64,000 bases of DNA from Carcharhinus longimanus (lineage: Eukaryota): the NCBI GenBank assembly GCA_030264375.1, contig JASCQW010000001.1, forward strand, positions 126,162,734 through 126,226,733, read 5' to 3'. Positions 1,225 through 58,548 of this stretch are shown in pieces. Below the pieces are notes generated by a model, which saw only the letters and a program-made list of their open reading frames with translations, did no database searches and was not told the origin of the DNA. Within the stretch, counting starts at the first letter, position 1. Each line of letters starts with the position of its first letter. A program made the translations under genes and the position numbers.

Positions 1225-1926
1225 GGCAGCAGTGAAGGTGACACTGCCTTCAACCTGTACTTCACTGGGTCAATCCAGGGTTAGAGTGGGGACCTATATG
1301 GCATCTTCTCACTGTCATAGGCCCACAGGTGCATCTAGGAGGTAATGAGCGCCCTGCATACCCAGGCAGGCCACCATTTTGATCCAGGCCTGGCCCAACA
1401 AGGTGCCTGGGCTGCAGGCTTCGCTGCCATTGCCAGTATTCTGTGGGTGCAGGAGATGATTCCAGGCCCCGTGGAATGAGGGAATGGCATTTTTGAAGGG
1501 GTTCCATTCCCTGAACGTGCAGATCGTGAGCAACCACTTCAATAACATCCTGGTGGTGTGTGTACACTTCCTGAGGAGTGTGTGCACGATAGCTACATCC
1601 TGGGGCACTCAAATATCCTTGGGGTCTTTGAGGACCATAGTTGGCTACTGGGATGTCTCCTGGGGAACAAAGGCTACCCACTAAGGTCTTGGCTGATGAC
1701 ACCAGTGAACAGGCCAGAGATGAAGGCAGAAACCCAATACAACAAGGACCACACTGGCACCCTGTCTGTAAAGGTTCCTCTACCTGGACCATTCTGGTGG
1801 TACTCTGCAGTACAGTCCCCAGAGGGTGGCCTGCACAACATTGTACAGCAGCAGGGCGACATCCTGGAGGAGGGCCAGGCGGATGCTCTTGTGGAGGAGG
1901 CAGACCAGGAGGATGTGGAGGAATAG
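1225..1926 (+). pseudogene. Harbinger DDE transposase (HARBI1-like), frameshifted
   Basis: Motifs across frames: VKVT..FNLYFTGSIQ..GDLYGI, KGFHSLNVQIV, VHDSYIL, LLGNKGYPLRSWLMTPV..YNKDH; stops and frameshifts. Confidence 0.9.
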
Positions 1927-6877: not shown

Positions 6878-7602
6878 ACCAGCTGTTTGAAATGAGCTGA
6901 CCTATTATTCCCAATCCCCTCCAAGGTTATGCTCTGCGTCCTTCAGTTTCCTCCAGATTCTCCAGTAAGGCAAAAGGTTTGGGAAAGGAAGAGTAAGCTG
7001 TTGAACAGATACCTTTGTGAGATGGTGGTACCATTTGTATTTTTCATTCAGAACCAGAGATTCTTTTTGGAAACTAACAATTTGAGGGATGTATTCTCTA
7101 TGGCCTGGTGTGGGGTCTAGTGTGCTTGGAGGGATCAGCTGACAGGGAACTTTGGAACTGTGGTTTCAAACGCTGTCTGCCACTGGGGGTTTTCCTCAAC
7201 TATTCTTTGGGTTTGCTGTTATTTTTATGATTCATTCTCAGGATGATGTGTTGCTGGCTAGCCAGCATTTAGTTGCTGTTTGATAGAAGTGAGTGCTTTG
7301 TCAGGAAAGATGGCTACTTACCAAAAGGCCACTGGGGCTGTGTCTCAGAGGGAGGTGGGTCTGGGAGCACAGTGTGTGTGCAATGCTGGGAAGGGCAGCA
7401 TGAGAAAATCAATTAAAAAATAAATGTTACAGCAAGAGAGGGAACTCTCTTCATGTTACTGTTCATGATCCACACAAGCCTCCAGCCACCCCAACTTCAT
7501 CTCCATGTGGAAAGTCCCACATTCTCAGCATTCTCTAGATGAAGAGGTTTCTCCTGCCTTCCCCATTGAGTTTGTTGGGGATTGTCTTACATTTAAGGTT
7601 GC

Positions 7603-7873
7603 CTAGTTCTGATCTTCCCCACAACTGGGAACAACTTTGTTACTTCTACCTTTTGAACAACTTGAATCATTTGAGCGCATTACATTGCCCCCACACCCTG
7701 TTAACTCTCCTGTGGTGTCAGAACAGTGAGGATATCTCATCTTCCATCTCATTCTGTTCAACGTTACTCCATTCCAGTCCTGCATCACAACAGCCTCCTG
7801 AAAGAAGTAACTCATTGTCTGTCCTTTGGGAAACCCTGAAAGGGTGATAGGTTCTCTGGAAATGAAAATCCAT
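7603..7873 (-). pseudogene. Short intronless orphan ORF remnant (acidic middle, basic tail ending SNKVVP)
   Basis: Kozak gacaATGG at 7873; MDFHFQRTYHPFRV..EQNEMEDEISSLF* continuing ..FKLFKR, and RSNKVVPSCGEDQN* in an adjacent frame. Confidence 0.35.
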
Positions 7874-7972
7874 TGTCTTTTCTCTTTTGCGCTGTAATAA
7901 CACAGAGCCCCTGTTATCACTTTGGTCTTTGTTTCCTGACTTGTGTCTCTAAATTGGGAAATTCTGGAAGCT

Positions 7973-8087
7973 GGTGACATCACACTGTTGGGGATGAGGC
8001 TATTGTGACATAGTCCTGTGATGTCACAGTACCACCGTGTTTGTGACATCATCCTGCTTACCCGTTTCCATAGTGGCCAAGTTTAAA
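7973..8087. promoter_or_regulatory. Candidate bidirectional promoter: CRE-like sites, X-box-like site, TATA-like site
   Basis: TGACATCA 7975-7982 and 8044-8051, TGATGTCA 8019-8026, TGACA 8006-8010, GTTTCCATAGTGGC 8064-8077, TTTAAA 8082-8087. Confidence 0.5.
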
Positions 8088-8100
8088 TGCCGTTGACAGA

Positions 8101-9146
8101 ATGTTTACCATTGATTTGGTGTTCTACCTGCCAACTGTTGTTATGCAAAACAGAGTCAACATGATCATCACAACGTGGATCATTTATTGTTGGGGATTTG
8201 AAAGATTACATGGACCAATGCGTTCCATTCTCACCACAACAATGGTGAATGAAGTGGAAATGCTGATTAATAATGAAAATTATCAAGGAGGAAAGCAGCT
8301 GCAATTTATCACCACAGATTCCTCAGATGTCATTGTGTTGGCTCAACCAGCCCTAAATAATGAGAAGATTGAAGATCTCACTGAAGAATCTGGACTTGGA
8401 GAAGAAGAGGAGCTGAGTCTACACAATCTGTTGATGGACATTAAAAAATCAGCTGCCTTGGAGGATGGAGAGCCTGGAAGATTTCATTCAGTGTGGCAAA
8501 AAGAACCGAGAACGCCAACCAGAAAACACGGAAGGTGTGAGGCACGATAGGATGCTGGGGTGGTTGCCCATAGCAGCTCAATCACCACTGGAGACTCTGG
8601 ATGCGATTATGAGTCTGACTGATGCTGAAGGTCGATTAGAAATGGATGACCTCAGTCTGTGGAATAAAAACATCCATTGGGGAAATCTCCTCCATTGACC
8701 AGAAACCAGATCTAATGGAGGAACACGGTTCATGGATGAGTGACGTTGAGGCATTCTCAATCAACAGTGACATCACAGAGAATGTAAACGGACGTTTCCT
8801 CGATGACACAGATTGGGAAAGCATCAATCTGGAAAGTGACTTGGATACAGACAGCAGTGGTTCCATCTGGATTGCATTGAGGCCTTACATGTGTCCCAGT
8901 GAGAATGAGCAGCCAATCACAGTCTCTCCATCAGCAAGGACATCATTTATAAAGAAATCTATACAACGACTCAAATCCTGGATGGATAGAAGATCATCAT
9001 ATCAGAGAGAACAAGGACAGGGGAAGAGACAGGTCCCTGCAACAACTGTGCACTTCCTGCAGTGCTCCACTGTGCACCTGAAAAACTGGAAGTCAAGGAT
9101 TGAAGACAAGTTACCCAGATGCCTGGGAAAACTTCCACCCGTTTAA
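8101..9146 (+). pseudogene. Intronless orphan ORF split by two frameshifts (acidic protein, basic C-terminus)
   Basis: Overlapping ORFs 8101-8550, 8465-8698 and 8646-9146 tile 1 kb with consistent D/E/S-rich composition; Kozak acaacaATGG at 8242; no TE similarity recognised. Confidence 0.5.
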
Positions 9147-9369
9147 AGAAACACCGGCCCAGACTGGAAAGGCTGAAAGTCCAACAGACGAAGTTAGCAT
9201 TATATTTCATTTTCAATGTTTCTGCTTTGCTATAAACAATGTATTGTGCTTGTGCAAGGACAATTCACCTCGTGCCAATATGCTGCTTTGCCCTGTAGCC
9301 TTGCACATTCTTGCTCTTCAGATGATCATCCAATTCTCATTCGAAAGCCACAAGTGATTCTGTCCCCAC

Positions 9370-9660
9370 CACCATTCAGACGCAGTATTCCAGCTCCTAA
9401 CTACTGGCTGTGAAAAAGATTTTCCTAATGTTCCAGATGCATCTTTTATCAATCACCTTAAATCAGCGTCCTCTGGTTCACAATCACTTCACTAACAGGA
9501 ACAGCTTCTCCCTATCAGCTCCTTCCTATTTCCTTCATGATTAAATCACCTCTCAACTTTATCTTTGACAAGGAAGAGCAACACAAATTCTCCAATCTAC
9601 CAACGTAACTGAACGTCCTCATCCTTGGACCCTGGGTCCCTGCCTCCACCACCCTTTCAG
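9370..9660 (-). mobile_element. CR1 LINE 3' fragments
   Basis: Reverse frame YVGRLENLCCSSLSKIKLRGDLI, ELPERVVEAG. Confidence 0.7.
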
Positions 9661-9665
9661 GCAAT

Positions 9666-9880
9666 TCAAGATGGCGCTGGAATGCAGTGGCTGTTTGCGA
9701 GCTGTCCCCAGCATACCACAAATTCTATCTTTTACTCTTGTCCTATTTAAAACTGTATTCTACTACATTCTGTACCCTCTCCTTTCCTTCTCCATAAACT
9801 GTATGCTATGAACAGCACGCAAGAAACAATGCTTTTCCCTTCTTCTAATATATGCGACTATAATAAACCAAATCAAATCC
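9666..9880 (+). mobile_element. Short Rex1/Babar-derived element
   Basis: Starts caagatggcg; second half matches the 3' UTR and aatcaaatc tail of the Rex1 copy at 34515-35060. Confidence 0.6.
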
Positions 9881-9920
9881 TCTCAGTTCCAGACTCAAAC
9901 CAACCTTTGGGTGAAAATGT

Positions 9921-57310: not shown

Positions 57311-57489
57311 AGCACAGTGGTTAGCACTGCTGCTTCACAGCTTCAGGGTCCTGTGATCGATTCCTGGCTCAGTTAGGTGCCTGAATTGGAAATTAACCAG
57401 CGATCCAGTTTTCACAAGGATCTACAGTCTCTACCACACCTCTATCCCCTGTCCCCAGCATCTCCTCACTGTGGTCTTGGTCTCTAGCT

Positions 57490-58548
57490 CCAATACCAAG
57501 CCTCCACCATGCCCGAATCCAAGAGCCCAGTCTTCACCATGCCCCAACCCCAATGTCCAGTCTCCACCATGCCCCAATCCCAATGTCCAGTCTCCACCAT
57601 GCCCCAATCCCAATGACCAGCCCCCAATGTGTCCCAACACCAATGTCCATATTCCACTATGCCCCAATCCCAATGTCCAGACTCCACCATGTTCCAATCT
57701 CAATGTCCAACCTCCATCATGTTCCAATCACAATGTCCAGCCTCCAATATGTCCCAAACCCAATGTCCAGATTCCACTCTGCTCCAACCCCAATGTCCAG
57801 TCTCCACCATGCCGCAACCCCAATGTCCAGCCCACAATGTGTCCCAACCCCAATGTCCATATTCCACTATGCCACAATCCCAATGTCCAGCATCCACCAT
57901 GTTCCAACCCCAATATCCAGCCTCCAACATGTCCCAAACCCAATGTCCAGATTCCACTATGCTCCAACCCCAATGTCCAGCCTCCACCATGCTCCAACCC
58001 CATTGTCCAGCCTCCACCATGCCCCAACCCCAATGTCCAGATTCCACCATGCCCTAAGCCCAATCTCCTGCCTCCATCAAGTTCCAAATCTAATGTCCAG
58101 CCTCCACTGTGTTCCAACCCCAATGTCCTGCCTCCACCATGTTCCAACCCCAATGTCCTGCCTTCACCATGTTCCAACTGCAATGTCCTGCCTCCACCAT
58201 GTTCCAACCCCAATGACCAACCTCCACCATGTTCCAACCTCAATGTCCAGGCTCCATCATGTTCCAATCCCGATGTCCAGCCTCCACCATGCTCCAACCC
58301 CATTGTCCTGCCTGCACCATGCCCCAACCCCAATGTCCAGATTCCACCATGCCCCAACCCAAATCTCTAGCCTCCAACAAGCTCCAAACCTAATGTCCAG
58401 CCTCCATCGTGTTCCAACTCCAATGTCCAGCCTCCACCATCTCCAATCCCATTGTCCAGCCTCCACCATGTCCCAACCCCAATGTCCAGATTCCACCATG
58501 CCCCAACCCAAATCTCTAGCCTCCAACAAGCTCCAAACCTAATGTCCA
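57490..58548. repeat. 30-bp minisatellite, about 35 units, running into a gap
   Basis: Consensus about ccaatgtccagcctccaccatgttccaacc; units stay in register on the 60-nt lines. Confidence 0.97.

What the first reader, a model, noticed from the sequence alone, without database searches (positions are those of the whole stretch)
7603..9146. Divergent pair of intronless orphan (pseudo)genes sharing a compact CRE-like / X-box / TATA promoter
Seen: within about 115 bp there are three TGACATCA/TGATGTCA sites, a TGACA half site, GTTTCCATAGTGGC and TTTAAA. A strong-Kozak acaATGG points away on each side (7873 minus, 8242 plus). Both reading regions are non-TE, acidic in the middle and basic near the C-terminus (KKSIQRLKSWMDRR; FKLFKR..RSNKVVP), and both are broken by frameshifts or stops. 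Established: CRE variants (CREM) and X-boxes (RFX2) typify vertebrate spermatid promoters. Inference: this is a lineage-specific, probably testis-expressed bidirectional gene cassette, dead here or mis-assembled.
Basis: partly seen in the sequence, partly recalled or inferred. Interest (0 to 1): 0.7.

Follow-up and report, generated by a model that had tools for sequence, protein, structure and literature searches.

The report
Broken copy of shark orphan gene
This is one broken copy of an unnamed shark gene family, intact elsewhere in the same genome and in the catshark, that has been copied about twenty times together with its likely promoter and is likely active in sperm-forming cells; the supposed second gene on the other strand is leftover jumping-gene DNA.

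Summary
The motifs and both ATGs are there as described, but there is one gene, not two. The plus-strand region (8161-9146) is a broken copy of a single-exon, about 330-aa gene. One paralogue in this genome is intact, and catshark LOC119963236 has the same start and C-terminus. The start is 8161, not 8242. Both frameshifts appear in contigs of a public run, so they are probably real. The minus-strand 'gene' fails: its ATG is in 2 of 10 copies and its 'basic tail' is a decayed LINE 3' end. The cassette lies at about 22 places, spread by DNA-level duplication and shuffled by recombination between copies. Selection on the reading frame is weak (omega 0.80, p=0.002). A block of about 170 bp upstream differs 1.6-4.5 times less between copies than flanking DNA, while the ORF differs more than the flanks in 3 of 4 pairs. 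The motif bases are no better kept than the spacers, which favours gene conversion over motif-specific selection. Testis expression is inferred only; no RNA could be laid.

The parts
8161..9146 (+). Broken copy of a single-exon orphan gene (family protein about 330 aa; starts MIxTTWII, ends with TAA at 9144-9146)
   Evidence: Intact paralogue L004/L028 = G000:C190:78099050-78100039; the catshark protein matches 8161-8343, 8444-8647 and 8724-9137 by tblastn
8443..8448 (+). Frameshift 1: A6 where the other aligned copies have five bases (A5 in most)
   Evidence: An 87-nt contig of run X1 is identical across it; near-identical contigs of X2, X4 and X6 lack the extra A
8650..8660 (+). Frameshift 2: 14-nt deletion between two short GTCTG-type direct repeats
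   Evidence: An 86-nt X1 contig is identical across it but has only 24 letters on one side, under the tool's bridging bar
7920..8088 (+). Likely promoter block, near-identical among five copies
   Evidence: 3.4-7.1% divergence against 8.1-18.7% in flanks in 4 pairs; motif sites no better kept than spacers
7975..8051 (.). Three TGACATCA-type CRE-like sites (7975, 8019 on the minus strand, 8044) and a half site (8006)
   Evidence: all three in 4 of 16 promoter pieces scanned, several of them partial
8064..8077 (+). X-box-like 14-mer; the window copy is one base further from consensus than its four closest paralogues
8082..8087 (+). TTTAAA, TATA-like, about 75 nt before the ATG; none lies on the left side of the motif block
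8089..8160 (+). Likely 5' UTR; lacks a 29-nt piece present in paralogues
   Evidence: not an intron, because the GT end is not kept in most copies
7713..7919 (.). Non-coding left arm with the chance ATG at 7873
   Evidence: ATG in 2 of 10 copies and frame shifted in 8 of 10; divergence like flanks, 8-18%
7501..7664 (-). Decayed 3' end of a CR1-type LINE (the supposed basic C-terminus of the minus gene)
   Evidence: Dispersed hits on many chromosomes; profile of LINE tails E=1.8e-7; in L052 the matching tail lies downstream of an RT frame on the same strand
9147..9630 (+). 3' UTR and downstream flank, shared with the old C81 copies and so part of the duplicated block
   Evidence: L021, L022

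Best explanation
The region is one broken copy of a real single-exon gene that is intact at another locus and in the catshark, that was copied by DNA duplication together with its likely promoter, and that is likely transcribed in male germ cells to make a predicted mostly disordered, acidic adaptor protein. Shown: the copies, the intact frame, the catshark homologue, the two breaks, and the LINE origin of the left 'gene'. Inferred: (1) the family lives by birth and death, new copies arising from intact ones and then decaying; (2) recombination or gene conversion between copies has spread one promoter type over reading frames of different ages; (3) transcription runs one way, towards the ORF, driven by bZIP factors of the CREB/CREM/ATF type and perhaps RFX; (4) the protein binds partners through short amphipathic helices (residues 85-122 with an LxxLL-like core, and the basic pair 267-286 and 296-323), spaced by an acidic repeat region of variable length, most likely during spermatid differentiation. 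My odds: real gene 0.9; window copy dead 0.85; no second gene 0.9; testis-enriched 0.55; adaptor role about 0.25.
For: Intact 330-aa frame. Profile search of 1.84 billion proteins: 9 hits, 8 of this family, the best being catshark XP_038647965 at E=2.4e-54. Same start and end; 27% identity over 296 columns and 34% over 138. Codon model on 12 copies: omega 0.80, p=0.002; shifted and reverse frames 1.01, 1.01, 1.12, not significant. Indels shared by two or more copies are in frame in 5 of 7 cases, private ones in 9 of 36 (hand count). Copies share promoter, LINE tail and kilobases of flank with variable ends. Trees of the 5' and 3' halves conflict: L028 groups with L029 (support 100) in one and with L031 (86) in the other. 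AlphaFold: helices at 85-122, 267-286 and 296-323, the rest low confidence. Net charge negative over residues 31-240 and positive after.
Against: No expression data were obtained. The selection signal is weak: omega 0.82, p=0.014 without the repeat segment; none of five sub-regions is significant alone, and one control frame gave omega 2.08, p=0.0008. Only 1 of 12 aligned copies is intact. Motif bases vary as much as spacer bases (2.0% against 2.8%, p=0.53). The full motif set is confined to the youngest promoter type and is absent from the C81 copies. The catshark promoter was not available. The two Mustelus entries are chimeric models with repeat-derived N-termini, so they show the sequence, not an intact gene. 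RFX2 and CREM targets overlap little in mouse (PMC4498915, passages).
Confidence: 0.6

Rival explanations
1. The promoter, not the protein, is what is kept in most copies: it drives germ-line non-coding or piRNA-precursor transcripts, possibly in both directions, so it stays conserved in copies whose reading frame died long ago.
For: L031 has 2 stops and several frameshifts, yet its promoter block is 95-97% identical to four other copies while its flanks differ by 14-19%. The left arm reads into TE remnants.
Against: Conservation is uniform across motifs and spacers, as a conversion tract would be. The left arm diverges like flank. No small-RNA data.
Confidence: 0.15
2. One reading: two divergent protein-coding genes share the promoter.
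For: ATG at 7873 and a 159-codon stop-free minus frame at 7603-8082 in the window.
Against: ATG in 2 of 10 copies and frame shifted in 8 of 10; the 3' half is LINE and is replaced by another repeat in four copies; no Pfam match.
Confidence: 0.04
3. The cassette is a low-copy non-autonomous mobile element or viral remnant carrying an accessory ORF.
For: Dispersed, intronless, mostly dead copies, with several ends near 7713 and 9250.
Against: About 22 places only; no terminal repeats at its ends; shared flanks run on for kilobases and differ by subfamily, and the 7713 'end' is where another repeat interrupts the LINE tail; no relative in viral contigs; full-length catshark homologue.
Confidence: 0.08
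4. The window copy is intact in the animal and the breaks are assembly errors.
For: One break is in a homopolymer; near-identical contigs from two other organism labels lack it; the copy has no in-frame stop.
Against: X1 contigs match the window exactly over both breaks (X1 may be the assembly's own source); a 14-nt deletion between short repeats is not a typical consensus error; further private lesions in the 5' UTR and the X-box-like site.
Confidence: 0.1

Closest known systems
Scyliorhinus canicula LOC119963236 (XP_038647965.1, 'uncharacterized', 539 aa); S. torazame XP_072354011.1 and GCB76612.1; Mustelus asterias XP_078060350.1 and XP_078057640.1
   Same: Same family: in the catshark the same first residues, helix region, acidic repeat and basic C-terminal helices.
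   Different: The catshark protein has an expanded acidic repeat region; the Mustelus models are partial and fused to repeat-derived sequence; the window copy is broken. None of these identifiers occurs in the searched library.
Primate core-duplicon gene families (NPIP/Morpheus, SPATA31, GOLGA8, TBC1D3; PMC6920530, first of six parts read)
   Same: A shared gene core inside mosaic duplication blocks, partly tandem and partly dispersed, concentrated on one chromosome; variable internal repeat; coding part diverging faster than flanks in 3 of 4 pairs.
   Different: No homology. Overall omega is below 1, copies also lie on four other chromosomes, most are dead, blocks are a few kb, and expression and copy-number variation are untested. 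It works like one; it is not filed as one.
CREM-tau and RFX2 target promoters of mouse spermatids (PMC4498915, passages read)
   Same: Compact CRE-like sites and a 14-bp X-box-like element close to a likely start site.
   Different: The sites are variants, not the canonical CRE; the X-box match is imperfect; the two factors control largely separate gene sets in mouse; binding is untested.
CR1-clade LINE ORF2 3' end (clade label recalled)
   Same: 7501-7664 (minus strand) matches dispersed tails, one of them downstream of an RT frame.
   Different: A short, decayed, 5'-truncated relic that was carried along with the cassette.

Membership tests
Bidirectional gene pair | A conserved reading frame on each side | tested here: not met
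   Left ATG in 2 of 10 copies, frame shifted in 8 of 10; left tail is LINE
Bidirectional gene pair | Divergent transcription | not testable with these tools
   No run on record as RNA was offered
Protein-coding gene family (plus strand) | Start, end and order of blocks kept in a distant species | tested here: met
   Catshark XP_038647965
Protein-coding gene family (plus strand) | Purifying selection in the true frame only | tested here: met
   Omega 0.80, p=0.002 against 1.01, 1.01, 1.12; weak, sub-regions not significant
Protein-coding gene family (plus strand) | Transcript or protein observed | not testable with these tools
   No RNA run; catshark atlas supplements unreadable
Core-duplicon gene family | Shared core within mosaic duplication blocks | tested here: met
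Core-duplicon gene family | Copies generally on one chromosome | tested here: inconclusive
   9 of 16 chromosomal places on C1 (77-126 Mb), 7 on C190, C98, C81 and C105, plus 6 short scaffolds
Core-duplicon gene family | Positive selection (reported for at least half of them) | tested here: not met
   Overall omega 0.80; site models not run
Core-duplicon gene family | Copy-number variation in the population, and expression | not testable with these tools
   One assembly; contigs only
Transposable element (non-autonomous) | Terminal repeats or fixed ends, high copy number | tested here: not met
   about 22 places, variable ends, no terminal repeats
Transposable element (non-autonomous) | Target-site duplications and empty sites | not tested
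   No orthologous empty site available
Retrocopy | Promoter and flanks missing, poly(A) tail | tested here: not met
   Copies keep upstream and downstream flanks
CREM/RFX2 target promoter | Canonical CRE | tested here: not met
   0 TGACGTCA; variants only
CREM/RFX2 target promoter | X-box | tested here: inconclusive
   2 mismatches in the window (chance level), 1 in four paralogues; consensus recalled
CREM/RFX2 target promoter | Motif bases better conserved than spacers | tested here: not met
   6/305 against 22/792, p=0.53 (5 copies); 30/545 against 68/1374, p=0.65 (13 pieces)
CREM/RFX2 target promoter | Factor binding and spermatid expression | not testable with these tools
   Needs ChIP, reporter or RNA data
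CR1 LINE (7501-7664) | Dispersed repeat downstream of an RT domain | tested here: met
   RVT_1 E=1.9e-5 in L052, under Pfam's cut-off; seen in 1 of 12 fetched hits, with a 100-base gap and a second insert between RT and tail
CR1 LINE (7501-7664) | Clade by RT phylogeny | not tested
   The label CR1 is recalled from motif resemblance

The most novel reading that the evidence does not exclude
Ground sharks have their own core-duplicon-like germ-line gene family, with no homologue found outside them, in which one promoter type with added CRE-like and X-box-like sites has swept across paralogues by gene conversion while the protein-coding part diverges faster than neighbouring junk DNA: a shark counterpart of the fast-turnover testis amplicons of mammals.
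Probability: 0.3. Interest if true: 0.6.

Novelty: new member of a known kind. Interest (0 to 1): 0.35.

Why it matters
Lineage-restricted, amplified germ-line genes are well known in mammals and flies (own knowledge), but my searches found no paper on this family in sharks. It gives a concrete candidate: one intact copy, a catshark homologue that is already in a public tissue atlas, and a dated series of dead copies in which promoter and reading frame have different histories. If testis-specific, it would be a handle on shark-specific spermiogenesis. The window locus itself is an ordinary pseudogene.

Tried and rejected
Word-index protein search with the intact paralogue: no hit among 538 candidates; with alignment A3 only 3 already known proteins. 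Pfam: no family for the intact protein, for two of three window frames or for the 8 family homologues; one window frame gave a weak YABBY match at E=0.1. P0010, the ninth profile hit, is a bacterial Ig/cadherin repeat protein and was dropped as chance. ESM Atlas with the catshark protein: pLDDT 0.33, no usable hit. Foldseek against PDB: 0 matches. Viral contigs and two metagenome scans: nothing. Sequencing runs: no RNA holder listed, so nothing on expression either way. Branch-wise counting of substitutions was not obtained, so selection on internal against terminal branches is open. The 29-nt GT..AG piece as an intron: rejected (too short, GT not conserved). MYB-like hexamers: one CAACTG in 6 of 9 copies, too short to weigh. 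The sigma-70 scan is irrelevant to a vertebrate. Literature: six identifiers gave 0 papers; catshark spermatid transcriptome terms gave 0; searches gave nothing on this family (listings and abstract starts only). Supplements of PMC11979771 (TPM and Z-score tables for catshark tissues, testis included) could not be read and bear directly on the testis claim; main-text passages were read. PMC3906575: abstract only.

Full report
Observation. Three of the window's eight TGACATCA-type sites fall within 80 bp, about 1e-4 by chance. No canonical CRE is present, and the X-box-like site has two mismatches to a recalled consensus, a level that 20 sites in the window reach against 21.7 expected. Both ATGs exist.

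The cassette is multi-copy. A DNA search of the window's own 2.68-Gb genome gave 58 matches (40 of 105 candidates scored), and a protein search gave 46. By my count they fall at about 22 places: 9 on C1 between 77 and 126 Mb, 2 on C190, 1 on C98, 3 on C81 (one a tandem array of at least four), 1 on C105 and 6 short scaffolds, some of which may be alleles. Identity to the window is 65-89%. Copies share different lengths of flank: window and L002 about 4.5 kb, L028 and L033 3.5 kb, the window and the old C81 copies about 7500-9630. There are no terminal repeats. This is DNA-level duplication, not retroposition and not an obvious transposon.

The plus strand is a real gene. The copy at C190:78099050-78100039 holds an unbroken 330-aa frame (P0001). 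A profile of 14 family pieces searched against 1.84 billion proteins gave 9 hits. Five carry names: Scyliorhinus canicula LOC119963236 (539 aa, E=2.4e-54), two S. torazame proteins and two Mustelus asterias models, all uncharacterized or hypothetical. Three are unnamed JGI records of the same family, and one is an unrelated bacterial repeat protein. The catshark protein begins with the same residues, ends with the same basic helices and differs mainly by more acidic repeats (27% identity over 296 columns, 34% over 138). The start is therefore 8161 (ATG in 8 of 9 copies covering it), not 8242 (3 of 11). All named hits are ground sharks; how well the library covers other cartilaginous fishes is unknown. 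The Mustelus models have repeat-derived N-termini and show only that the sequence is present.

Selection is detectable but weak, as expected when 11 of 12 aligned copies are broken. Omega is 0.80 (p=0.002) in the true frame and 1.01, 1.01 and 1.12 in two shifted frames and one reverse frame. Without the repeat segment it is 0.82 (p=0.014). None of five sub-regions is significant alone, and one control frame gave 2.08. By hand, 5 of 7 indels shared by two or more copies keep the frame, against 9 of 36 private ones (two edge artefacts left out, and one site with different sizes in two copies not counted). This fits birth from intact copies followed by decay.

The window copy is dead. It has one extra A at 8443-8448 and lacks 14 nt near 8654, has no in-frame stop, and lacks 29 nt of 5' UTR. 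An 87-nt contig of run X1 is identical across the first break. An 86-nt contig is identical across the second, with only 24 letters on one side. X1 may be the assembly's own source. Contigs of two other organism labels, 2 differences in 271 nt (depth 2.1) and 6 in 252 nt, lack the extra A, so that lesion looks recent.

The minus strand is not a gene. The ATG at 7873 is in 2 of 10 copies (the window and L002), and the frame is shifted in the other 8. The 'basic C-terminus' lies in 7501-7664, which hits dispersed repeats on many chromosomes (40 of 80 candidates scored) and matches a profile of two LINE tails at E=1.8e-7. In 1 of 12 fetched hits (L052) the matching tail lies downstream of an RT frame on the same strand (RVT_1 E=1.9e-5, under the curated cut-off; a gap and a second insert intervene). 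The label CR1 is recalled. In four copies another repeat interrupts this tail.

The promoter block. Over 7920-8088, four pairs with shared flanks differ by 3.4, 7.1, 4.7 and 4.1%, against 8.1, 11.4, 13.8 and 18.7% in flanks (p=0.04, 0.10, 0.0005, 2e-6; pairs not independent). The ORF differs by 13.0, 19.7, 22.5 and 19.2%, more than the flanks in three of four pairs. Synonymous distances are raised too, so this is not simply positive selection. Motif bases are no better kept than spacers, and trees of the two ORF halves conflict. The simplest reading is recombination between copies, with one promoter type spread over frames of different ages. All three CRE-like sites occur in 4 of 16 promoter pieces scanned (several partial) and the X-box-like site in 5; the C81 copies lack both. 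Gain or loss cannot be decided without the catshark promoter. The TATA-like site lies only on the ORF side of the block.

Protein. AlphaFold gives mean pLDDT 55 and pTM 0.28, with fair-confidence helices at 85-122, 267-286 and 296-323 and low confidence elsewhere. The pI is 4.7 (catshark 4.2), acidic over 31-240 and basic after, with no transmembrane stretch. No Pfam, PDB or Atlas match. I infer a disordered adaptor that binds through short amphipathic helices. Germ-cell expression is inferred from the motif types (PMC4498915, passages) and from the general pattern of amplified, fast-evolving, intronless orphan genes (own knowledge). It is not shown, and the same paper reports little overlap between CREM and RFX2 targets.

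Comparison and verdict. It works like a primate core-duplicon family (PMC6920530, first part read) in its shared core and mosaic flanks, but it lacks overall positive selection and is unrelated in sequence. The family is in databases only as uncharacterized models, and none of six identifiers occurs in the searched library. New member of a known kind; interest 0.35.

Noticed in passing
L022:2-1090 (minus) and L039:7628-8260 (plus), G000:C81 82.74 and 83.13 Mb: C2H2 zinc-finger arrays lie head to head with the old copies of the cassette, about 2.9 and 6.5 kb from the promoter block. If any copy is truly bidirectional, this is where to look.
   Followed up: partly
L028:4057-4450, also L030, L031, L033: A repeat that resembles a Harbinger-type Myb/SANT fragment (recalled; no Pfam match) interrupts the LINE tail in one subfamily.
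   Followed up: partly
L022:4336-4413: A 93-nt insertion inside the ORF resembles the cassette's own downstream flank (window 9376-9452, 76%).
   Followed up: no
window 8745-8915; L031, L010, L032: The acidic repeat comes in two types; some copies hold both in tandem, the intact copy one type and the window the other; the catshark protein has several more units.
   Followed up: partly
window 7808-8139, run X2: One contig is nearly identical to the window up to 8139 and then continues like the intact C190 copy, a further hint of recombination between copies.
   Followed up: no
L029:4960-5946 (G000:C190:78112959-78113936): A second copy 14 kb from the intact one has a single stop and two compensating indels, but a gap and other sequence where the promoter should be.
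   Followed up: partly
window 57357-58540: Long tandem array that reads as Pro/Asn/Cys-rich repeats in open frames of 337 and 381 codons, with strong C skew.
   Followed up: no
window 1546-1926: Frame resembling a Harbinger-type transposase remnant (recalled motif).
   Followed up: no
window 9689-9900: Very high-copy repeat end, summed contig depth over 100,000 in three runs.
   Followed up: no
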